NCBI GenBank assembly: GCA_043228905.1
Contig: JBHGNT010000016.1
Span: forward strand, 8,990,001 to 9,054,000
Origin: Azolla caroliniana
Taxonomy: Eukaryota > Plantae > Polypodiophyta
DNA: 64,000 nt
Direction: 5' to 3'
Shown here: positions 8,115 to 49,536 of the stretch, one piece after another
How positions within the stretch are numbered: the first letter of the stretch is position 1
Layout of the letters: the number at the start of each line of letters is the position of its first letter
Program-made: the position numbers and the translations under genes
Notes under the pieces: generated by a model
Seen by the model: only the letters and a program-made list of their open reading frames with translations
The model's database searches: none
Told to the model about the DNA's origin: nothing

Positions 8115-9625
8115 TATTGAGATACAAGCTCAACATTGGTCAGATCGGTTGTGCAAGTGGAGAACCGGATCGGTTTGGACCGATCGGTTAGGTCAGACCG
8201 GTGCGTAAACTGGTGCGCAACAAGAGGCTGGATCGGTGCGGAAACCGGGAGGCCGTTGAATAGATATTCCGTGAGGGAATATATTTGGGAGTTAGTGTAG
8301 GAGTTCAGTTATGAGCATTGAAGTACGTGTCAGTACTTCTATTAGTTCGTATGGACTTGTATAAAAGTGCTCTCTGAGCACATCCTATGTACAGAGTTTA
8401 CACATTATTTGAATTTAGTTTTTCTATGTATATTTCCCTCTCTGTCTGTCCCACGTACATTGTGTCTTATGCTCTCCATTAAACCTGTTTCTTCTCTGTC
8501 GGTATTATGTGTTTCGTATAGCTTCTGCGCGTAACATTTCACACGGTATCAGAGCGCGAGGGTTGAGAACCTCTGCAACCGACTTCAGCTCGAAACACAC
8601 ACAAAAAAACTAATCTCGGTGAAGAACACAAAGGAAAAAATGGATAGAGGTATGGCTAGTTCGCTTCCAACTGAGAAGCTCGACATAAGTAACTACGCAT
8701 CTTGGTCGTACGAGATGCACCAGTACCTGCTCGGACATGGATACTGGAGCTATGTCGATGGAGCGAATGATGCAGCACCCGAATCGACACACAGAGACTT
8801 GCCGGCCCGGGAACAGTCGACGAATAGAGTTCTCTACTGCTTCGCGTCTTGTGTGAGTGAAAAACTCTTGAGCTACATTCGGGATGCAAGAACGCTGAAG
8901 GATGCTTGGGGAAATCTGAAAAAGATTTTCGCCACAAGCACCACAGCCAAGAAGCCCCAACTCTGACAAGAGTTGAGCAATGTGCGTCAACGCGACATGA
9001 AGGTGGCTGACTACACCTCCAAGATAAAGGATATCTGCGACACCCTCGCCTCCATCAATGTGAACGTTGACGAGGGTGAAATGGTGCAGATCTGCCTTGG
9101 AGGATTGGTGTCAAAGTTCGGAGCATTCCGAACTGCTATTTGTACAAGAGAGAATACGCCATCATTTTTCGACTTGTAGTCGATGCTCCTTGTAGAGGAG
9201 AATCACGCGGGTGTGTCGACGAGTATGCACGCCAATAGCAAGATTTTGTACACGGAGGGAAATAGGCCCCGTGGTCGTGGTGGACGAGGCGAGTCGGCAC
9301 ACAATGGAGGTGGCCGACGGGAGCAAGGAAGAAGGCATCGTGGTGATGCCAACAGCAATTCCGAACCCTCCGGAAGCAGGGGGAGTCGAGGAGGCGACGA
9401 GAACTGGCAAGGGAAACACGCCGCGGAATGTTGGTATTGTGCCAAGAAAGGCCACAAGGAGAGCGAGTGCTGGAAGAAGCATGCCGATTCGGAGAAAACC
9501 GGATCCCGATCCGAACAAACCGAACAAGGAAATCGGCAGCGGACACACTACGCCGAAGGATCCGAAAAAGTCGGAAAGGGGGCAGCCTTTGTGACAAGAC
9601 ACAAATCGAACTCGATGAAGAAGAC
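8115..9625 (+). mobile_element. Truncated copia related to family A: 5' LTR 8115-8543, PBS, gag
   Basis: PBS variant CGGTATCAGAGC 8544-8555; gag MDRGMASSLPTEKLD and zinc knuckle CWYCAKKGHKESEC closely match the element at 43686-49536; breaks off just before the protease. Confidence 0.9.
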
Positions 9626-10676
9626 ATCTTCTCCAACCTCTACCTACCGATGACCCCCCATTTCGCAGTCCTTGTTCCGACCGCAAGGTCTATAACCATA
9701 ACTTTGTTTCTTCTATGGAGGCCCATGTATCGAGGATAGGCACCCACATTGAGTTAAGCATCGTCGACCACCGAGCCCTCGGTCGTGTCAAGTGCCCCCG
9801 CAAAACGTTACGTGGCATTGCAAATGGCGTCATCGGTTTCTACATCTCACACTCCCCGACATCCCCCTCACACACCTCTCATTGTAACACACGGGACTAC
9901 ATTATGGAGCCGTGTTTTCATTTTATTTTTATCTCCCTTTTCACATTTAGGATCATGCTCAGGACTACACCTTCGGTCACCGGCATTGTAATGTTTCCAT
10001 CCCTCTTTTTTATTTTTATTTTATTTCCATCCTACCCTCTCCTCACTTTTCCCAACTTACCCCTTCCAAATTTCCATCCATACCCTCCCTTTACTTTTTA
10101 TATTCCCACACTACCCCTATCTTCATTTTTTCCATATTACCCTCTCACCCCTACATTTTTCATAATTTTAGCTCTAGCCCTCCCTCTACTTTTCAAAATT
10201 ACCACCCTACGCTTGCCCTCACTTTTTCATAATTAACCACCCCTACCCTCACCTTTGATAATACCCTCCTAACCCCCCCCTACTTTTCATATTTTTATAT
10301 CTAGCCCTCCCCTCATCTAAACCCATAATTTATCCCTACCCCTCATCTCTCTTAAATATCTACCTCTCTCTTACTTTTTAACCTCACACGTGTGCCCACA
10401 TCACCACTCCCTTTTCCTTATCTTTTAACAATTTTACCTCTCCTTCCTTAAACATTGACGTGTACACATCCCTTTCCCCTCTCTCGTACTTTCTCCCTAC
10501 ACTCTTTCCCATACCCTCTCACTCCTTCCCTCTTACCATTCCCTTTTCCCTATCTTTAAGAAACCTTAACTTTACATCCCACTACCTTTCCTTCCTTGAT
10601 GTGCACATATGTACATAGCTACCCCCCACTCCCAATTTTGATCCCATACCCTCACTCTACCCCTCTCCTAAAGTCC

Positions 10677-10684
10677 TATATAAA
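10677..10684 (+). promoter_or_regulatory. TATA box upstream of the hammerhead
   Basis: CCTATATAAACCC, a plant-type TATA context, about 25 nt before stem I. Confidence 0.45.
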
Positions 10685-10701
10685 CCCCATCCCTCACCCT
10701 C

Positions 10702-10762
10702 ATGGTCTTATGTTGGCACTGATGAGCCCTTCATGGGCGAAACTAGTTTGCCATAAGACCAT
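10702..10762 (+). ncRNA. Minimal type I hammerhead ribozyme
   Basis: Stem I ATGGTCTTA-[TGT bulge]-TGGCA pairs with TGCCA-TAAGACCAT; core CTGATGA 10719-10725; stem II GCCC/GGGC with loop TTCAT; GAAA 10739-10742; palindromic CTAG in stem III; GUU cleavage triplet ending at 10748. Confidence 0.85.
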
Positions 10763-10832
10763 ACCCTAACACACCCTTCCCCCCTCAAACCCCATTTAAT
10801 TTTTTTCCAATAATAATTACATGTTTTAGTTA

Positions 10833-10870
<38 letters not shown>

Positions 10871-11925
10871 TTAGTTTTTAATTTTGTTGTTAATTAGTAT
10901 GTTAATCTCATTGTCTCCCCTTACTCCACTTACTCCTCTTTTTAATGTTTAACTATGTTTTTAAACTCGTTTTTTATTCTTAATCTTGGACTTAATTATG
11001 TTTTAATGTTTTAATCTCTCTCTCTGTCCCCCTCTCTCACCCACTACCCTCCCTTTACCTTGTTTTAGGTTTATGTTTCTAGTTTTATGATTACGTTTTT
11101 AGTTTTTCTTAGGGTTAGTTTTATGTGTTAATCATTTTCATTAGTGTTTATGTTTAGCCTTAGCATGTTAATCCTCTCCCCTCTCGGTTTTTTAATTATG
11201 TTCTTTAATCCTGTTTTTTAATTATGTTCTTTAATCTCGTTTTTTTTAAAATCCTAAACTTAATCTCCTATCCCCACTCCCGCCTTCCTCCTCTATACCA
11301 AGCACTTTCACGATTTGGGTGCGCTCCAATCGACCTTGGTGTTCCTCCTCTCTGACATCTTCTCTAACCTCTACTCGTCGATGACCCCCCATTTTGCACT
11401 CCTTGTTTCGACCACAAGGTCTATAACCATGAATTTAGGTTTATGTTTCTAGTTTTATGATTCCTTTTTTAGTTTTTTTGTTAGGGTTAGTTTTATGTGT
11501 TAATCGTTTTCATTACTGTTTATGTTTAGCCTTAGCATGTTAATCCTTTCCCCTCTCAGTTTTTTAATTATGTTCTTTAATCCCGTTTTTTTAATTATGT
11601 TCTTTCATCTCGTTTTTTTTTTTTAATCCTAAATTTAATCTCCTATCCCCACTCCCACCTTCCTCCTCTACACCAAGCACTTTCACGATTCAGGTGCGCT
11701 CCAATCGACTTGGTGTTCCTCCTCTCCGACATCTTCTCCAACCTCTACTTGCTGATGACCCCCCATTTCGCATTCCTTCTTCCGACCGCAAGGTCTATAA
11801 CCATAGGATTCCAACAAGCCATATGGATGGTGTCATGGCATCTTTGCTCGGCAACAAGCATCACAAGTCCGAACATAGTCATCGACAAAACGTCGCATAT
11901 GGGGTCACTAAAAAGATCATCGGAC

Positions 11926-14900
11926 TAGATCCATTGTCTTAGTACTACCGAAATGTCCAGTTGTATGGGTGTCGTGACAATTTTGGATGATTTGAAGGCG
12001 ACAGGAGCAATCTAGAACATACACGAGATTTTTAAAGAATAATAAACTATCATGATATTCGAATTTTCGGTAGTCCATACCTAGTTGTTGAGACTGGGAA
12101 CAGGATGCCCAAGAGGCATCAATTTGCACTAGAATGGCTTGAGCAAAACTGTCCGTCTTCAAATTGGCACGTATGGCATCGATAATCCGGGAATCCAGTA
12201 GAGTGTGAAAAATCCACGTTGTGTGCAAATGTGTTGGTTCCAATATTACCTACTTTTGATTATCAAATGTTGGATCACCAGGACAAGGTGCAAGATATGA
12301 GCGTCGCGATAGTGCATCTGCTTTTCCTTGTTGCTTCCCTGGCCGATATGTGATTTGGAAGTCAAAACGCGGGAGGAATTGGGCCAACCGAGCATGCCAT
12401 CGATTTAGTACGCGAGCGTTCTGGAAATAAGCAAGATTTTTGTGATCACGGAAGACGGTGACCTGATGAGGAGAACCCTGTAAGAAGTGTTTCCATTGCA
12501 CAAACGAATCCACGATAGGTAATAACTCCTTGTCATGTATCTCATAGTTTATTTCCACGGCATCATATTTGCGCGAGTGGAAAGCCACTGGATGTAACTC
12601 TTCTTTATCTCCTTGTTGTGAAAGGATGCTACCGAGGGCGAAACCCGATGCGTCAGCCTCCATGATGAATGGTTTGTTTGTATCTGTATCCACATGAGCT
12701 AGAATAGGACCTGATGTAAAGGCTTTCTTAATATGCATAAAAGCCATGTCCATTTCATTGGACCAAAGAAATGATTGTCCCTTCTTGGTAAGTTGTGTGA
12801 GAGGCAAAATAATCTTCGAGTAATCTTGTATAAACTTGTGGTAGAAGTTAGTGAAGCCTAGGAAACATTGCACATCTCGTAACGAACATGGAGGTTGCCA
12901 CTCTAACACAGTTTTGACTTTAGTTGGATCCATGGAGATGCCTTTTGAGGAGATGACGTAGCCTAGAAATTCCACTTGTTTGCAGTCAAAGCTACATTTT
13001 TCTAGTTTGGCATAAAGACCATGCTCTCGGAGTCGTTTTAGTACAATAAGTACATGAGAATCATGCTCTTCCTAGGTCTTCTAATAAATCAATAGATAAG
13101 CCAAATAGATGATCAAACGAATATCCAAGAGGTCTCTGAATATATCATTTGCCATGTGCTAGAAGACAATGGGTGCATTGGTTAGACCGAATGGCATAAC
13201 GGTATACTCAAAGTGCCCATATCGGGTGTGAAAAGCGGTCTTCCATTCGCCTCCCAGTCGGATCCGCATGAGGTTATATGCTCCTCATAAATCGATTTTT
13301 GTAAAAAACATGGCACCATTTACACGTTCTAAAAGACTTGATATAAGGGGAAGTGCATACATATTCCTGATGGTGACCTTATTCAAGCTACGGTAAGCAA
13401 CGACGAGACGAAGGGATCCATCCTTCTTCTTGACAAAGAAAATGGGTGCACCGGCCAGATATTTCGAATGACGAATAAACCTGCTTGCCAAATTCTCCTC
13501 TATGTAGGCTCGAAGGACTTCCAACTCGATTGGTGACAAGTTGTAAATCGATCCCCACGGTGGCTCTTTTCCTAGTTGTAAATCGATCGGACAATCATAG
13601 GGACGATGATGAGGAAGAGTACAGGCTTTTACCTTGTCAAATACATCGACATAAGGATGATATTTCGAGGGAAGTTGAACTAAGGATTCCTTCTTAATAG
13701 TGCTAGAAGGATGTACAGATATTGCAAATAGAAACATTGACTCTTTGCGTCCTTCTTCGCGTAATTCATGAAGCGAAATGGTCAAATCTCGATGAGTAGA
13801 TTCTCGGGGTTGTCGATATCAGAATTCTCTTGTTCTCCAATCTATGTCTGGATTATGTAATTCAAACCAAGGTAAGCCCAAGACAATGGGATGCTCTGGA
13901 CTACTAATTATATTAAATGATATCACACACACAAAGCTATCTAGGACAACTTGAATGGGTTCTGACTCTTCTACGATATTCCCAGAAGCAATGGGACGAC
14001 CATCAATGACTACTACATATGTGGGGCAAGGAAGTTTTCTTAAGGATATCTGAGAAGCTTGGGCAAAATTCTGATCCATGAAACAGGAATTGGCTCCGGA
14101 GTCTAAAAGTGCTAAGACGTGTACTGGAGGGGTGCTTTTAGTACTAACCATAACTTGGGGTAAGAACACATTGCTAACTTGCTTAGAGGGAATGGAACCA
14201 CTAATGGGTTGCACAGATCTAGGGTTGTCCAACCAAACGGCTCCTATTTTGGCTGGACTTAGTCATTTAACTCTTCCTCTAATTGACTAAGGATTTCAAA
14301 TTTGCTTGAGATACTTGGGCGATCAGAGCACTATTAATACTATCAGACACTTCTAAGGGAATTGACTCGGGTTTAGTACAGGCTACGATTTGATTTACCT
14401 GTCTTCTTAGCCTATGGGGACAGTTGATTGTGATATGCCCTGGTCCACCGCAATAAAGACATAATCGATTTGCATGCCGTTGTTGCTTTTCTTCTTCCGA
14501 TAACGGGCCAAGTCGACGCTGGTGTCAATGTCCATCGGTGTCCGAGTATTTGCCTGAGATACATCTCGTGCAAACGGTTTAGTTGCGACTGAGGCGTAGT
14601 GGGCTCTGGCCTAATCTGTGGTATTTGTAATTGTCGTTCCGAACGTCATTCAAAAAGGCGGTTGTCGCATCAAACCGCTCGACCGATTGCCTCTGTGAGA
14701 GATTTTGGTTCTTCGGGGAAGATTAAAAGTAAATCTTTGACGTCGTTTCACAAGCAGTAGTGAAACTGGTCCATTAATTCTTGATCATCCCAGGGGATAT
14801 TTGAGGCGAGTAGACAGAAATCTGCCGCGTAGGCAGAGGTTGGATGATCTGCTTGACGCAATCGTTGGATCTTGTTGATTGTCGTCCTGATGCTGTCTGT

Positions 14901-27969: not shown

Positions 27970-28226
27970 AATCCATGTTATCATTTTTTTGAACTTGTCT
28001 GGTGTGATTTATTCCCTCAATTCACAAGTTTAGAATGTTGTTAACTTTGTCTTGATTCTCATTAACTTGTATAAAGATGTACTTAAAAAATTTTAATCCA
28101 TGTTATCATTTTTTTGAACTTGTCTGGTGTGATTTATTCCCTCAATTCACAAGTTTAGAATGTTGTTAACTTTGTCTTGATTCTCATTAACTTGTATAAA
28201 GATGTACTTAAAAAATTTTAATCCAT
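27970..28226. repeat. Apparently exact 125-bp tandem duplication
   Basis: AATCCAT recurs at 27970, 28095 and 28220 with matching sequence between. Confidence 0.9.
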
Positions 28227-37131: not shown

Positions 37132-40100
37132 TTACACAAGCTCTGATCTGATTCCTTTGACATCGCATTCTGACGAAACTGTTGAATCAATTGAATGATT
37201 CACAACATCGGCGGACCTACATTCTACTCCATCTTCAACCTGTGTTTCTATGTCACCTATATCGGTTGACTGATTGTCAAGATCTTCATCACCAGTCATG
37301 GAGACTGTTGGTGCAAAAAACACATCAGTTGGATACAGCCCTTGGAAGATCTGATAGCAGAAAAAAAAAAACACATACAATAGTTAAACAGGTTTTGATT
37401 CTACCACATATTTTGATAAAAAAAACACCTCAATACCCATATACTTTTGGATTTATACCAAAATAGCCCTTAGCTTTCTGAAATTACCAGGACATCTCTC
37501 TTGAACAGTAACGCTTAGAAAACCAAGAGGGGTATTCTGGGAAATATACAATACATAAGGGAAATTATGGTGCTTTTCCCCCAAACAAATTTCATCTCCC
37601 CATACTTTGAGAGGGAAAAACAAAAATCTCCTCTAATGTTGGGCCATTTTAGAAGGATATTGTCCATAGAAAAGTTTACCTTCTCCGCGGAACTGACTAC
37701 ACTCCGATAATCAAGTGTTTCATCTGGTAAACCAGAAACTGCAATGTGGCCTTCTGATATCCACTGTGTTAACAATCTCAAGTTCAGGATACTTGTCGGC
37801 AATTGGCAATGTATGCGAAAACTACATAGTACTATATAAAACCTTAAAGCTTTCAGGAAAGGATTGATGTTGAACAAAGCTGACAGCCCATAGCAAAGTT
37901 GGTTTGTTATCTGTTGAGATATTTCCACTACTCTCGGCACAATGGAAGAGAACCTTAATGGCTGCTTGCATTGCCTTTATACCAATCAATGCGTCTGAGC
38001 ATGCCATAGACAGCTGTACAATAAACCTTCATGGATGTTAAGTAAACAATTAGGCTGGTGTCAATATAACAATCACTTGATGATTTGGTCAATGTAAATG
38101 TAATGATAGCTGAATGACTTTGAACTACTTACTTTCCTTCAGGACATACGTTTGCATCAGCTCCCAGTTGAAGAGCTCGAATCACACTATTGGTTTTATT
38201 TGTTATGGCTACAAATGCAAAATCATGGGATATTATTGCTAAAGTTTTGAATCATTGCAATGTACCAAATAATGTTGCTTACATTGAGGCGGGCAGACTA
38301 CAATTAGTGTAGATATGCCCGGTTGTAAGGACTTATCCGTAATACAAATGCTTCGGACTATTTTATTGTTTTTTTCTTTGTCACCAAATGTATCAACACT
38401 ATCACTACTATTATTATTAAATGTCTTGCGAAGTGTTAAATACAAAGATGGTCCAGTTACAAGTTTCTTAGAGAATATCAACTGTCCAGTAGACATTTGT
38501 ATCCCTTCAAATTCATGGGTTTCCTGTGCAAGAAACGGAAGACAGAAACTATATCTTACATATTATGTAAAAAAGAGCACCAGGGAAAACACCAAAATAC
38601 CTCTGCTTGGAGCAGTTTTCAAAACTTATCAGAATCCTCTTTTTGTAATATATGTGGGTATTCTGGTAAGTTTCAAAAACTCACAGGTTTTCTGGTAAAT
38701 GTCCAGAAATTTGGGGGTATTTTGATTCTTTCCAAAAAACAATAAAAAGACTTTATTCACATTTAGTTATAAAACCTTGTTTCTAAGCAAAGCATCAACA
38801 GGCATCCTGAGGACCTGAATCATGAGAGAATCCAACATTAGTTTTCCCAGTTAATAAAAGGGTGTTCATATCTAACGTGCTTACATAAAGTGCCCCTTTA
38901 ACAGCTGCACATCGACTGAAAGCCTGAGGTAATTCTCCTTGACCATATAAAGGATACAAAAATGCTCCAAGGGCATTTTCGTACCTATAATGGAAGCATA
39001 AAAAAAAAAGTTTTTGTCAAGTTTAAATATATTTTGATGCCTAGAGCAACATATTAACTTAAAGCTCACATCATACCTCCCAACTGATGTAAGATAAAGT
39101 GCCAGATTTTGCATGCCTTCCCTCGTGCTAACCACAGAACCAGAATCCTCCCTATTCAAATCTTGTTTATCATCTGCCAAGGCTATGGCATAAAGGATAA
39201 TTCTGTGAAAAGGATACAGAGATCAGGCTAATTGCTCATACATGCATCTTGTTAAGTCGATAACAAAAAACACAATTAACTTCAAACCAAATTTATAATA
39301 AACAGATACTATATAGGACAAAAAAACAAAATCCTCCTAGATTTTGGAATATTTACTAAAAAAAACCTAAGTTTGCAAAAGTAATAAAACGTTTGTACTG
39401 CAAAGCAGCATTCTGGCATGTTTTGCAAACTTACAGTTTTGGTCAATTCTAAAAACTTAGTGATATTCTCATAGATATCCAGCAAGTTAGGGATATTTTT
39501 TGGTGTTTTTCACCTACTATATACATATACACATATATGAGGACTAGAGTAGGTACTGCATTGTACGCTTGAACAGAGGAAGGAAGCTTTTGTCCTTGTA
39601 AAAACTCGATAAATGGAGAATCAAGATCCTCTTCACAAAGCTTCGAAGCTTCTAGATCAGATGTGGATGTGTGATCAATAACCATCTTGAAAAACCTCAT
39701 CAAATGACGTTTCTCTACAGCGCTCAGAGTACGATCTTTGAATATATCAGCTCGAGAAGATGGTACAGGTGATATACCTTCAGAAGTCCATATAAAACTA
39801 GCTTCCAAGGCTCTGAATTGAAGATAATTGTGAGCTCCTGACCTTATCACTAGATCTACAAGAGGTCCATTGCAAAATGCTAGCTTTGGGCCAGCTATGT
39901 CAATATTATAGCCTCGAGGAGACCCTAGAATTTCTTCTGAGCTGGTCTGTGTAACTTCAAAATTTGAATACATTGAAAAAGAATGTAAAGGTATTGCTTC
40001 AAGGTTCTTCTCTTGCATAACAAGGGAATTTGGTTCGACACTTGGGAGATTTCCTCCATCTGATGGTAGAATATCTGCAATGTTTTCAAGAATTTCAAAT

Positions 40101-40822
40101 CCTTCTCCATCTGATTGCACAATTTTCTCATGTTTCCTAATTTCTTCTTGCCTTTCTTCATCTGAACATAGAATATTTGCAAGATTTTCAAGTTTTTCTC
40201 CATATCGAGGCAAACTATCTGCAATATTTTCAAGCTTTTTCCCCTCTGGTGGCGAAATTTCTTCAAGATTTTCCGGCTTTCCTCCATATGAAGGCAAAAC
40301 ATCTGTAATTTTCCCAGCATTTTCTCCATCTGATGGCGAAATATGTAGTTTTTCTTCATTCGATGAAGATACATCTACAATGTCCCCGATTTTTTCCCTA
40401 TTTGTAGGAAAAATATCTGCATCTATATCCTGTTTAACTTTATCATCGATAGAATGAATTTCAATTGCCTTATCATCAAAGATGTGATTTTGATCCTCTT
40501 CTACAGATGAACAGCGTTCTATTTCATGACTTGGAGGTGGAATTCTAAGAGGCGATTCAAGGACCATACCAGTGGCGTTTTCTTCCGCAGAGATTGGTTG
40601 CGAAAGTGAAGAAGAGGAGAAAGGAAGAATGCCTTCTGATTCAGACCAACTCTTGAGGTCTGAGAGAGGGAGAGAGGTCCAGTGAGAGCCATAGAAGTCA
40701 CAAGGATCTACGTGAAGAACAGAGTGTCCAGAGGAAGAAGATGCTGCAGATACGATGCACTGCGGGAGACCTGTTTCTAGAACGACGAGATCGAAGGACG
40801 AAGGCTCGATGAAGCTCGCCAT
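37132..40822 (-). CDS. REP: Rab escort protein (GDI/REP family), about 774 aa
   Basis: Nine exons with GT-AG introns and consistent phases: 39567-40822, 39077-39202, 38885-38984, 38776-38814, 38283-38523, 38133-38208, 37843-38026, 37680-37763, 37132-37350. Motifs SVLHVDPCDFYGSHW, VPSSRADIFKDRTLSAVEKRHLMRFF, LYPLYGQGELPQAFSRCAAVKGALYVLR. Confidence 0.93.
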
Positions 40823-41575
40823 GACCCAGGATCTTCTTCTTCTTCTTCTTCTTCTTCTTCGTATGCCTGTGTGTGTGTGATATTCTGAGAATAGCCAAGG
40901 GTATTTCGGGAAATAGGAAAATGTAGGGGCACCTGATGGAAATAAAGAAAATCTGGGGAGGGGGAGGGGGTGGGGGTGGGGGGGTTGGTTGTCGTGAAAT
41001 CCCGTGGTGTGTGAAAATGTGTTTACAAAACCCACCTGTTTGTTAAGTGAAACAATGCCATGTTCTCTAGTTTCAACAAACCCTGTAAGGCTTAGTATTC
41101 CCAAACATGGGTATATTGTAAATTGTGGAGAATTGCCCTTTATCACGTATGAATGGTGAATGGGTTTTAATGTGAACAGGGCCCATTCGAGTTTCCAACA
41201 TGTAGGAAAAGGGCAAGAGCTCTCATGTAAAAGGGGCCTATGGGTGTCCAAACCTTTGGGCTACCTTTTGATCCTCATTCTCTCCCACTTTTGCATCCAC
41301 TAAGAGCCATTTTCTCTATGTAAATTTTCCCCCATTAATTAATCAAGATATAAATGTTTTTTACTTGATAAGTATTTATTTAATTGAGAAACCTTGTATG
41401 TTTCTTATGCAGTAATGATGTATTTAATTAAGACAATCATATTTCTTATATCAGTGTAGTAGTGATTGGATCTATGTTGTTGTTAGATTAACTTAAGAAG
41501 CCTTCAAAGCTTCCATTGTTGTGTGGAGTGGAGAGGTAAATGTTTTTTATATGTGTTGTGTATGCCCTTTCCTAT

Positions 41576-46600: not shown

Positions 46601-49536
46601 TCCTCATCGGACTAGTAAGATTGACTCAGTCTCTCGTTCGGCCCACTCAACCAAAACGATTCCGGACTCTCATCCTGAGTCCACGCTTCATCGTCATCTA
46701 CTTGGGCCGATTCAGGCTCACTAGCCTCATCCTTCGGCATCGGGTCGGATTTGGAAGTCGGAGCCAATAAGGAGTACCTCGATGCCGATTCATCGAACTC
46801 GACATCTCAACTAACTCGGACCTGCTTTGTCCGGGGGTTATAACATTTATAACCCTTTTGCACTTGAGCATAGCCGATTAGGATGCATTTTTCCGATTTT
46901 GCATCCACCTTCCTCCGCTTCTCATCTTGTACATGCACGTATGCAATGCTACCGAAGATCTTAAGGTGTCTCAAATTTGGCTTGTGCCCGAAATACAGCT
47001 CATGAGCTGACACCTGTCACTGATCCGGTTCTGGATGTAGACAGCCGTTCGGACTGCCTCCGCCCAGTAGAATTTGGGCATGCTCTTCTCCTCCAGCATT
47101 GCCCTTGCCGCATCAATAAGCGACCGGTTCTTCCTTTCGGCAACACCATTCTATTGCGGTGTGTATCTGCAGCTGAACTCTCTCCGAATTCCCTTTTGCT
47201 GTAGATAACTGTTGAATTGTTCGGAAAAATATTGTTTCCTGCCATCCGACCGCAGGCATTTGATCTTCCTCTTCGATTCCCCTTCCACCATGCTTTGGAG
47301 ACTCCGGAAACACTCGAAGACTTCACTCTTCCGCTCAATGAGGTAGATCCATGTGTGCCGCGTATAGTCGTCGATGAAGGAGACGAAATATCGACTCCCG
47401 CCAAGACTAACATTCTGTGCCGGTCCCCACACATCCGAATGGATAAGTTCGATCTTGTTACGGCTCTGGTTACGTTCAATAGGGAATGGAAGCCGATATT
47501 GCTTCCCGAGTTGGTAGGCTTCACATACTTGGGCCTTCCGGCCGCTGAACTTCGGCAAACCGAAAACAACTTGTTTCGTTTGCAGGTCTTGAAGCCTCCG
47601 TAATTGACATGGCCTATCTGCTTGTGCCACAGGTCGATGTCCGATTCGACCTTCTGTCCTTTTGCAAACAGAGCGGTGCCGACGTCATTGGTGTCGAGGA
47701 TAAACATCCTCCCGTCTTTGCGCCCTTGCGCATTAATCTGGCCCTCTTCCCCGATGAAGCACCCAAGGTGCGTAAACCGCACCTGCATCCCCTGGTCGAC
47801 GATCTGTCCGATCGACACCAGGTTCTTCGTGATTGTCGGAACGTGTAATACATTCATCAACTTCCCCTTCTATCCGACGTGGCTCAAAGGGACTTCTCCG
47901 ACGTGCACGATTGGGTGAGGAGTGTCGTCTCCGGTTTCAACTACTCCTGGTTGATCCGGTTTCTCCAAAAAGGAGAACCACTCTTTGTGGCTCGTCATGT
48001 GGTTCGATGCACCAGAATCAACATACCACACTTCCTCTGATTTGGAAGTGGTCTTCTTCATCGAGTTCGCCTCGTGCTTCATCACCAAGGCTGGCCCGTT
48101 ACCGTTCTTGGATCCTCCCGATCCCTTCGTGTAGTGCGAGCTTTGCCGACCATCCTTGCCGGCCTTGTCGGATCCGAATTTGTTCGAATCGGCGCGTTTC
48201 TCCAACACTCGCTTTCTCTATGGCCCTTTTTGCCACAATACCAGCATTCCATTGCAGTCTTCTCTTGCCGTCTTCCAGTGCCGCCATGACTCCCCCTGCT
48301 CCCGGAGGGTCCAGAATTGCTGTCGGCACATTCTCTGTGCCTTTGTTCCTGGTCTTGCCGGCCGCCTCCATTGCGTGCCAACCCGCCTCGTCCACCACGC
48401 CCACGGGACCGATCCGCTTCCGTGTACAGCATTCGGCTGTCAATGGGTGCGCTAGTTGACGCACCAGCGTGGTTCTCCTCTACAAGGAGCATCGACTGTA
48501 AGTTGAAAAATGACGGCGTATTCTCCCTTGTACATACCGCCGTTCGGAATGCTCTAAACTTAGACGCCAGGCCCCCAAGACAGACCTGTACCATCTCGTC
48601 TTCCTCTACGGTAACGTTGATAGAGGCAAGCGAGTGATAGATCTCTTTGATCCGGGCCGTGTAATCCGCCACCGACATGTCCTTCTGTCGAACATTGCTC
48701 AACTCTTGTCGGAGTTGTAGCTTCCGGGCTGTAGTGCTCGCGGCGAAAACCTTCTTCAGGTTTCCCCAAGCCTCCTTCGGCGTCTTGGCGTCTCAGATGT
48801 GGCTCAACAGCTGGTCTCCGACAATGGACGCGAAGCAGTACATCACTCTCCTTGCCGATTGTTCCCACACTGGGAAATCCTTATGTGTCGCATCAGGTGC
48901 TGTTTCGTTGGCTCCTTCGACGAAACTCCAATAGCCATGCCCAAGCAGATACTGGTGCATCTTGTCGGATTTGTCGAGTTTCTCCACAGGGAGCGAGCTA
49001 GCCATTCCTCTATCCATCACTTCTTTGTCTGTTGTTCTTACGAGCTGTTAGGGCTTGCTTTCAAGTGTTTGTCGACTGCAGAGGTTCTCAACCCTCGCGC
49101 TCTGATACCATGTAAATGATTACTTGCGGAAGCGTTAGAAAATAGAGAAAGCAGAGAATACACAAAGTACACAGGAGAGACAGAGAGAGAGCAGAACGTA
49201 AAAGCTATATTCAAAAAACAATATAAAACACACTCTCTGTATCTCTCTTACAACTGTGCTCAGTAGCACTATTTATATAAGTCCTCGTGGGACTAACAAT
49301 AGTACCGCGTACTTCAATGCTCACACGAGCATCTGACACTTACTACGAGACTATAACTGCCTAGTAGTCTAAACTAATACTAGGCTTCCGGTTACCGATT
49401 GGATCCGGCTAACCGTCTCCCCAGCTCACCGGCTCTGTTGCTTGCCGGCTCGGTTGCTCACCGGCTTACCGATTCATCTCGCTCACCGACAGGCTTATCC
49501 AGCCGATCTGGCTCCAGTTGAGCTTGCCACTCAACA
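43686..49536 (-). mobile_element. Full-length but disabled Ty1/copia (family A)
   Basis: LTRs 43686-44112 and 49111-49536 (about 93-94% identical by rough manual count); flanks CACAT and CACAC; PBS 49099-49110; PPT from 44113; gag, PR (WYVDSGASNHMT), INT, RT (LYVDDL) and RH (RTKHIEVHYHFVRE) with stops and frameshifts. Confidence 0.96.

What the first reader, a model, noticed from the sequence alone, without database searches (positions are those of the whole stretch)
10677..10762. Minimal type I hammerhead ribozyme just downstream of a TATA box
Seen: all core nucleotides (CUGAUGA, GAAA, UH), a 4-bp stem II, a 14-bp stem I with a 3-nt UGU bulge, and stem III reduced to A-CUAG-U. Known: minimal type I hammerheads with a palindromic stem III are typical of Penelope-like elements and non-LTR retrozymes and are thought to cleave as dimers, whereas angiosperm LTR retrozymes use type III. 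Inference: a self-cleaving RNA that marks a possibly undescribed mobile or circular RNA family in this lineage, cutting after U10748 near the transcript 5' end. Only one copy is visible in the window.
Basis: partly seen in the sequence, partly recalled or inferred. Interest (0 to 1): 0.85.

Follow-up and report, generated by a model that had tools for sequence, protein, structure and literature searches.

The report
Promoter-carrying hammerhead retroelement of a plant
The motif is a real hammerhead ribozyme fold in the middle of a 1.7-2.4 kb non-coding repeated element of a land plant that carries a TATA box and a second folded RNA domain at its DNA ends, and it likely spreads as a self-cut, probably circular RNA copied by a telomerase-related retrotransposon enzyme.

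Summary
In detail: the hammerhead core, both stems, the ACUAGU palindrome and the TATA box are at the stated coordinates. The strict motif arose in 0 of 200 shuffled windows. It is not a lone copy. It sits inside a 2.18-kb non-coding insertion (9623-11804) of a multicopy family, seen in 22 further contigs and in runs of four coded organism labels, with 1.73-2.40 kb units. The TATA box is kept 37-42 nt before the core in 22 of 22 loci. A second, covarying ~190-nt RNA domain spans the DNA permutation junction, and 7 of 13 visible right ends fall in its loop. Telomeric (CCCTAAA)n arrays, always on the ribozyme strand, occur in 11 of 17 loci examined. One contig links a copy to an endonuclease-minus, Coprina-like Penelope RT that has its own TATA plus hammerhead. 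Best reading: a non-autonomous, Penelope-dependent non-LTR retrozyme. Type I hammerheads in Selaginella Penelope elements are known; the built-in promoter and the junction domain were not found in print. Cleavage, transcription, circles and the RT partnership are untested. Two earlier, unchecked scan notes report Coprina-like hammerhead elements elsewhere in this genome.

The parts
9623..11804 (+). Whole insertion, non-coding: X1-U-(C-rich)-TATA-hammerhead-Y-X2-(Y'-X3); unit period 1731 bp
   Evidence: Self-BLAST, period, collinear relatives; no significant RT match by tblastn
9623..9699 (+). X1, left terminal repeat (pseudo-LTR-like, 77 bp), joined to copia gag over a short microhomology
   Evidence: 94% to 11728-11805 and 87% to 11354-11436; junction compared with a second copia copy
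9648..9835 (+). X-U structured RNA domain: outer helices CGAUGA/UCAUCG and CCAUU/AAUGG close over a GACC-N4-GGUC hairpin, a variable loop where insertion ends fall, and a long covarying hairpin
   Evidence: z -2.85; 96.6% of cells paired, 5 pairs with two-sided change; full domain at 18 places
10677..10684 (+). TATA box, 42 nt before CUGAUGA
   Evidence: TATATAAA in 22 of 22 loci, 37-42 nt before the core, and not part of the search pattern
10702..10762 (+). Type I hammerhead ribozyme; predicted cut 10748/10749; ACUAGU palindrome 10742-10747
11296..11341 (+). Conserved hairpin (Y)ACCAAG..CGATT-GGGTGCGCTC-AATCG..CTTGGTG upstream of X; second copy at 11671-11715
   Evidence: The hairpin is the MFE fold in 18 of 19 distinct contexts
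11354..11430 (+). X2, end of the first unit
11434..11804 (+). Partial duplication (Y'-X3, 91% identical to 11064-11430); right end 10 nt past the GACC-GGTC hairpin
8521..9631 (+). Left flank, not part of the element: copia-type gag, cut off at the insertion
   Evidence: Pfam Retrotran_gag_2; 72% to 48045-49133
11805..13071 (-). Right flank, not part of the element: gypsy-type pol (RT/RNase H, then an integrase-like stretch cut at the insertion)
   Evidence: Pfam RT_RNaseH; integrase label recalled from the translation

Best explanation
The hammerhead is the likely processing site of a 1.7-2.4 kb non-coding repeated element that is likely a non-autonomous retroelement copied by an endonuclease-minus (Coprina-like) Penelope reverse transcriptase. 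Shown: the fold, the fixed TATA spacing, head-to-tail units, terminal repeats at X, the X-U domain and telomeric repeats on the ribozyme strand. Inferred: transcription would start at the base of stem I in tandem master copies. Two hammerheads would pair through ACUAGU and cut after U17, releasing a ribozyme-to-ribozyme monomer that a host ligase would circularise. The RT would prime from an exposed DNA 3' end (telomere overhang or break) in the loop of the X-U domain and copy slightly more than one round. That gives X-U-TATA-hammerhead-Y-X with no target-site duplication. This copy has one ribozyme and no downstream U, so it is likely a dead end.
For: Unit periods are 1731 (window), 1777, 1825, 1841, 2156, 2357, 2371 and 2395 bp; four contigs close on themselves (L005, L013, L014, L016). 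A Y-X to X-U joint is seen in run X9. The X-U helices need X 5' of U, whereas DNA ends fall between them: 7 of 13 right ends with a visible flank lie 0-25 nt past the GACC-GGUC hairpin (read by eye). X-U pairing: 96.6% of 407 cells, 10 cells with two-sided change, 0 of 500 shuffles as high. Hammerhead: G-C to A-U in 4 of 12 rows and U-A to C-G in 2. In organism D a different 9-bp distal stem I still pairs and a TATAAA is kept. Tandem AAACCCT occurs in 11 of 17 loci examined, on the ribozyme strand. L009 holds an RT C-terminus followed by TATAAAA, its own type I hammerhead (CUGAAGA, ACAUGU) and then a 5'-truncated family copy. Its relatives are ~600-aa DKN-motif RTs; none of the 142 held proteins matched a GIY-YIG pattern; named members come from Cryptomeria and Selaginella moellendorffii. 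No TSD was found in the window or L019. Endonuclease-minus PLEs are described as using reverse-complement telomeric repeats and hammerheads (PMC8557442, PMC4209133).
Against: There is no DNA similarity between the L009 PLE 3' region and the family, and no X-U domain in L009; the link rests on one contig plus architecture. The window's own copy has no AAACCCT, and 6 of 17 loci have no tandem AAACCCT. Six right ends lie elsewhere (L008, L009, L012, L018, L020, L021; L018 and L020 share a flank). The outer X-U helices are invariant, so they carry no covariation, and all two-sided changes come from one subfamily (2 rows per pair). The 22 loci were selected by a pattern that fixes the core, so they cannot show core conservation; the one unselected copy (second motif of L008) has three unpaired cells. 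Published dimer-type hammerheads often cleave poorly: 1 of 9 Xenopus dimers was active (10.64898/2026.07.22.740005), and PLE min-HHRs are weak (PMC4209133). In rotifer Terminons the telomeric stretch is immediately 3' of the hammerhead (PMC6431247), not several hundred nt away as here.
Confidence: 0.6

Rival explanations
1. Same element and same RT partner, but with no circle: the template is a linear, longer-than-unit transcript in which the downstream hammerhead stays uncut. The ribozyme only trims the capped 5' end or is occasionally used, and the terminal repeat comes from read-through or a template jump, as in ordinary pseudo-LTRs.
For: An uncut dimer transcript gives the same DNA structure. 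The 374-bp Y'-X3 duplication looks like an aborted first copy followed by a jump. Monomeric helix III cannot form and the dimer helix is weak (-4.8 kcal/mol). H17 is U, a slower triplet (recalled).
Against: A TATA box placed so that transcription would begin at the base of stem I, and a stem I that covaries, suggest the cut matters. The L008 second copy ends within a few nt of the predicted cut site.
Confidence: 0.2
2. The family is moved or amplified by something other than the Coprina-like RT: a LINE RT, telomerase-assisted healing of breaks, or DNA-level tandem amplification of a decayed PLE end.
For: No sequence homology to the one PLE 3' region seen. Many copies are interstitial, next to genes or inside LTR elements. 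Head-to-tail arrays can grow by unequal crossover (discussed in 10.64898/2026.07.22.740005).
Against: There is no poly(A) tail or TSD at the two insertions checked. Ends cluster at an RNA hairpin, and RNA helices covary across subfamilies. The same TATA-plus-hammerhead layout follows the PLE RT in L009.
Confidence: 0.12
3. A host-kept non-coding RNA locus (for example a telomerase-RNA paralogue or a self-decapping regulatory RNA) rather than a selfish element.
For: Intact TATA and core. A helix-closed domain with a hairpin 5' of a C/A-rich loop recalls the template-boundary layout of telomerase RNA (PMC8287931, passages).
Against: Multicopy, with several subfamilies and truncated copies; inserted between two broken LTR elements; transition-rich decay between its own repeats; no telomere template in this copy's loop.
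Confidence: 0.05

Closest known systems
Endonuclease-minus PLEs of Selaginella moellendorffii (Coprina Sm1/Sm2) with canonical type I hammerheads in their pseudo-LTRs (PMC4209133, parts 1-2 of 4 read; PMC13159263 and PMC8557442, passages)
   Same: Land plant, type I hammerhead, partial-tandem terminal repeats, reverse-complement telomeric repeats. The candidate RT is 46% identical to an S. moellendorffii protein (P0021 vs P0006).
   Different: No ORF; 1.7-2.4 kb unit; many interstitial copies; DNA ends at a second RNA domain 680 nt or more downstream of the ribozyme.
Metazoan non-LTR retrozymes (PMC7229834, passages; PMC7761336, passages; bioRxiv 10.64898/2026.07.22.740005, parts 1-3 of 5 read)
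   Same: Non-coding head-to-tail units with one canonical type I hammerhead each, no PBS/PPT seen, GC 40%, proposed PLE partner.
   Different: Plant host; units 1.7-2.4 kb against 150-450 bp (up to 972). It has a conserved TATA box, whereas PMC7761336 says retrozymes seem to lack promoters and lack any motif pointing to the helper.
Putative type I 'retrozymes' listed for S. moellendorffii (111 HHRs; 4 units of 757-994 nt) and Chlamydomonas reinhardtii (24 HHRs; 6 of ~2,000 nt) (PMC4918200, Additional file 1 read)
   Same: Green-lineage type I hammerheads in repeats; similar size in Chlamydomonas.
   Different: Only tabulated there; whether they are non-autonomous, or carry a TATA box or an X-U-like domain, is not stated in what I read.
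Non-autonomous Chlamys PLEs such as MRC1 (PMC8557442, passage)
   Same: Non-autonomous, pseudo-LTRs, multicopy head-to-tail insertions.
   Different: Chlamys are endonuclease-plus, mostly lack hammerheads and resemble their helpers at the 3' end; no such resemblance was found here.
Angiosperm LTR retrozymes (PMC4918200, passages)
   Same: Non-autonomous, hammerhead-defined RNA unit, DNA a permutation of the RNA.
   Different: They have a type III ribozyme in both LTRs, a tRNA-Met PBS, a PPT, a 4-bp TSD and a gypsy helper; here the ribozyme is type I, lies outside the terminal repeats, and no TSD was found.

Membership tests
Canonical type I hammerhead | Core C3-A9, G12-A14, A15.1-U16.1, H17, with stems I and II | tested here: met
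Canonical type I hammerhead | 1-2-bp helix III with a palindromic loop able to form a dimer helix | tested here: met
   ACUAGU, 6-bp duplex, -4.8 kcal/mol
Canonical type I hammerhead | Self-cleavage | not testable with these tools
   needs an in vitro assay
Minimal (min-)HHR of metazoan PLEs | No helix III/loop 3; long helix II (7-8 bp); short helix I | tested here: not met
   helix II 4 bp, helix I 14 bp, CUAG loop; definition from PMC4209133
Non-LTR retrozyme | Non-coding tandem units with one type I hammerhead per unit | tested here: met
   periods and self-closing contigs; no RT by tblastn except L009. No contig shows two intact same-family ribozymes.
Non-LTR retrozyme | Unit-length linear and circular RNA in vivo | not testable with these tools
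   only contigs available; no raw RNA reads
LTR retrozyme | Type III ribozyme in both LTRs, 4-bp TSD | tested here: not met
   type I, single, outside the terminal repeats; no TSD at 2 of 2 insertions checked
Autonomous PLE | RT ORF between pseudo-LTRs | tested here: not met
   best tblastn E 0.28 over 33 aa; the open frame 9619-10236 has no Pfam match (first 103 aa) and relatives carry 1-, 2- and 5-nt indels
Non-autonomous partner of an EN-minus PLE | Reverse-complement telomeric repeats near the 3' end | tested here: inconclusive
   tandem AAACCCT in 11 of 17 loci examined, absent from the window's copy
Non-autonomous partner of an EN-minus PLE | Shared 3'-end sequence or structure with the helper | tested here: inconclusive
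   none found in the 524-nt PLE 3' piece of L009; a full helper unit was not available
Coprina clade (candidate helper in L009) | Single RT ORF, DKN motif, no GIY-YIG domain | tested here: met
   met in full-length relatives 51-58% identical to the L009 fragment; no tree with reference Coprina sequences was built
Plant telomerase RNA | Template of at least one repeat plus 1 nt in a single-copy gene | tested here: not met
   multicopy; no CCCTAAA in the window's X-U loop
Plant telomerase RNA | USE-TATA type 3 promoter; pseudoknot 3' of the template | not tested
   looked by eye only; features taken from PMC8287931 passages

The most novel reading that the evidence does not exclude
These are promoter-bearing circular-RNA parasites of telomerase-like Penelope RTs. 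The X-U domain is a telomerase-RNA-like landing pad (closing helix, boundary hairpin, C/A-rich priming loop) that lets an endonuclease-free RT start inside an endless circle at telomere overhangs or chromosome breaks. It would be the first defined cis-signal linking a retrozyme circle to its helper, and a living parallel to the RT-plus-separate-RNA split that gave telomerase.
Probability: 0.2. Interest if true: 0.85.

Novelty: new variant of a known kind. Interest (0 to 1): 0.52.

Why it matters
Two questions are open in the papers read: what hammerheads do in Penelope-like elements, and which enzyme mobilises non-LTR retrozymes and how it primes on a circle. This family offers a compact test system: a candidate promoter, a ribozyme, a candidate priming domain marked by clustered insertion ends, and a ~600-aa single-domain RT. 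It also suggests that endonuclease-free Penelope machinery can spread passengers to interstitial sites in large plant genomes. The ribozyme itself is an ordinary type I hammerhead.

Tried and rejected
No whole genome is held, so there is no copy census. Depth over the core in run X1 was about 5,000 against about 30-60 on contigs specific to single copies; this is not a copy number. Coding remnant in U (open frame 9619-10236): first suspected, then rejected; no Pfam match, only 2 unannotated hits among 1.84 billion representatives, and frameshifting indels among relatives. Expression: no RNA holder listed. A guessed-RNA run holds a 443-nt contig of a related subfamily over 10675-10753, which may be DNA, so it is not used as evidence. 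Rfam found nothing over X or U in six loci at E<=0.5, so they are not a catalogued ribozyme or small RNA. RT loci with context: none in viral contigs (44 pattern matches, 0 confirmed) or prokaryote genomes (215, 0). No PDB relative of the RT alignment. The single viral-contig pattern match (L023) is an unrelated phage-like hammerhead. The sigma-70 scan was irrelevant. A chance origin of the motif is rejected. Literature searches for a description of this family (the last, 'Penelope' + 'fern genome' + 'ribozyme', gave 0 papers) found none. The library lacks most subscription papers. Gladyshev and Arkhipova 2007 and Arkhipova 2017 were seen only second-hand, and the supplements of PMC4209133 and PMC8557442, which could bear on novelty, were not read.

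Full report
Observation. Stems I and II are the minimum-energy fold (z -3.41, 0 of 200 shuffles) and persist in 1.8 kb of context. Rfam's HH9 model matches at E 0.0026 but under its gathering score. It is the only such motif in the window, and the strict form arose in 0 of 200 shuffled windows. By the definitions in PMC4209133 (parts 1-2 of 4 read) it is a canonical, dimer-type type I hammerhead, not a minimal one.

The element around it. Self-comparison shows an insertion at 9623-11804: a 77-bp segment X at the left end, a unique stretch U, a C-rich stretch, the TATA box and ribozyme, a T-rich stretch Y, X again at 11354-11430, and a 91%-identical duplication of the last 370 bp. The left flank is a truncated copia gag, joined over a short microhomology. 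The right flank is a gypsy pol on the other strand. The flanks do not belong together and no target-site duplication is seen. The open frame in U is not under coding constraint, and the element has no RT.

It is a family. Contigs of runs from four coded organism labels cover the core. Differences were listed in loop II, stem II and stem I and none inside CUGAUGA or GAAACUAGUU, though 6 indel rows were not shown and only contigs at 80% or more count. In organism D the distal stem I is a different sequence that still forms 9 bp, with a TATAAA upstream. A pattern scan returned 22 contigs, from a small set of assemblies and selected for an exact core, so they are neither independent nor evidence for core conservation. 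What the pattern did not fix is informative. All 22 have TATATAAA 37-42 nt before the core. Stem I falls into about four subfamilies, with G-C to A-U in 4 of 12 aligned rows and U-A to C-G in 2. The distal helix is misregistered in that alignment and only 74% paired, and the one unselected copy is decayed. Unit periods are 1.73-2.40 kb in 8 copies, four of them self-closing contigs. Two further short periods reported by the script (L003, L010) are telomeric-repeat or assembly matches and were dropped.

A second RNA domain. X and the start of U pair with each other across their junction, closing a ~190-nt domain. Over 11 sequences, 96.6% of 407 cells pair and 5 pairs change on both sides (0 of 500 shuffles as high for cells). 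The outer helices are invariant and the two-sided changes come from one subfamily. A model built from these finds the full domain at 18 places in the window and 23 loci, 11 of them its training set, and none in L009. DNA ends fall inside this domain: read by eye, 7 of 13 right ends with a visible flank (window, L004, L006, L007, L015, L019, L022) lie 0-25 nt past its GACC-N4-GGUC hairpin, and 6 lie elsewhere. Tandem AAACCCT occurs in 11 of 17 loci examined, mostly within 250 nt of X and far above local shuffles. It is on the ribozyme strand in the elements and absent from the window's copy. The RNA unit therefore appears to run through X into U, while the DNA unit starts and stops there, with the ribozyme intact in the middle: the DNA looks like a circular permutation of a ribozyme-to-ribozyme RNA (inference).

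The likely helper. Contig L009 encodes the C-terminal part of a Penelope-type RT, followed by TATAAAA, a type I hammerhead with an ACAUGU palindrome and, about 140 nt on, a 5'-truncated copy of the family. Full-length relatives are ~600 aa with the DKN motif and YIDD, and no GIY-YIG pattern was found in the 142 held proteins. Named members are from Cryptomeria japonica and Selaginella moellendorffii. That fits the endonuclease-minus Coprina group, described as attaching to telomeric overhangs through reverse-complement repeats beside hammerheads (PMC8557442, section 9 and passages; PMC13159263 and PMC6431247, passages). Against this, the L009 PLE piece shares no DNA similarity with the family, and the link is one contig.

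Mechanism, in order of support. Shown: structure, spacing, tandem units, end clustering. Inferred: TATA-driven transcription from about 10702 in tandem masters; dimer cleavage (duplex -4.8 kcal/mol); circularisation; priming in the X-U loop by a telomere overhang or broken DNA end; more-than-unit copying. A circle model for PLEs was proposed in PMC4209133. A linear uncut multimer gives the same DNA and is the main rival. This copy, with one ribozyme, no downstream U and transition-rich decay, is probably inactive as a master.

Comparison and novelty. Type I hammerheads in Selaginella PLE repeats are published, putative type I retrozymes are tabulated for Selaginella and Chlamydomonas (PMC4918200, passages and Additional file 1), and animal non-LTR retrozymes are argued to be PLE passengers (PMC7229834, passages; bioRxiv 10.64898/2026.07.22.740005, parts 1-3 of 5). 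PMC7761336 (passages) states that retrozymes seem to lack promoters and that animal ones lack motifs pointing to a helper; this family has a candidate for both. Seven searches found no description of it, within a library that lacks most subscription papers, and unread supplements may bear on this. Two unchecked scan notes on other pieces of this genome reach a similar Coprina reading, and one calls the host a fern; I had reached my reading before seeing them and could not check their loci. Verdict: a real feature, a new variant of a known kind, interest 0.52.

Noticed in passing
L023:860-930: Type I hammerhead with the same CUAG loop in an intergenic gap of a phage-like contig; genes there are preceded by a repeated 21-27-nt leader motif (533, 939, 1501, 2174, 2685).
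   Followed up: partly
L008 (oriented 2300-2430): A second, decayed hammerhead of another subfamily whose element ends within a few nt of the predicted cut site; a possible copy primed from a cleaved linear RNA.
   Followed up: partly
L017 (oriented 1965-2342): The X region is repeated head-to-tail with a 148-bp period, 99% identical, at the right end of the closest relative of the window's copy.
   Followed up: no
L006 (oriented ~1455-1500): A tRNA-like sequence (label recalled) begins about 120 nt past the element's right end.
   Followed up: no
L020:1900-8101: Apparently intact LINE-like element with 622-aa and 1448-aa frames (label recalled from motifs).
   Followed up: no
table: Several ~600-aa RT relatives lie on contigs of 3.7-3.9 kb, a size that could be a collapsed tandem unit; Cryptomeria copies share contigs, suggesting arrays.
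   Followed up: no
window:19298-20900 (-) and 39449-41260 (-): Host genes: a glyceraldehyde-3-phosphate dehydrogenase (Pfam Gp_dh_C) and a GDI/Rab-escort-family exon with a 42-nt internal repeat.
   Followed up: partly
window:25738-26083 and 27970-28226: Tandem repeats of 75-76 bp and a perfect 125-bp duplication.
   Followed up: no
window:6440-6960: A short repeat-rich, partly palindromic stretch (AACCG/CGGTT motifs), possibly a MITE-like element.
   Followed up: no
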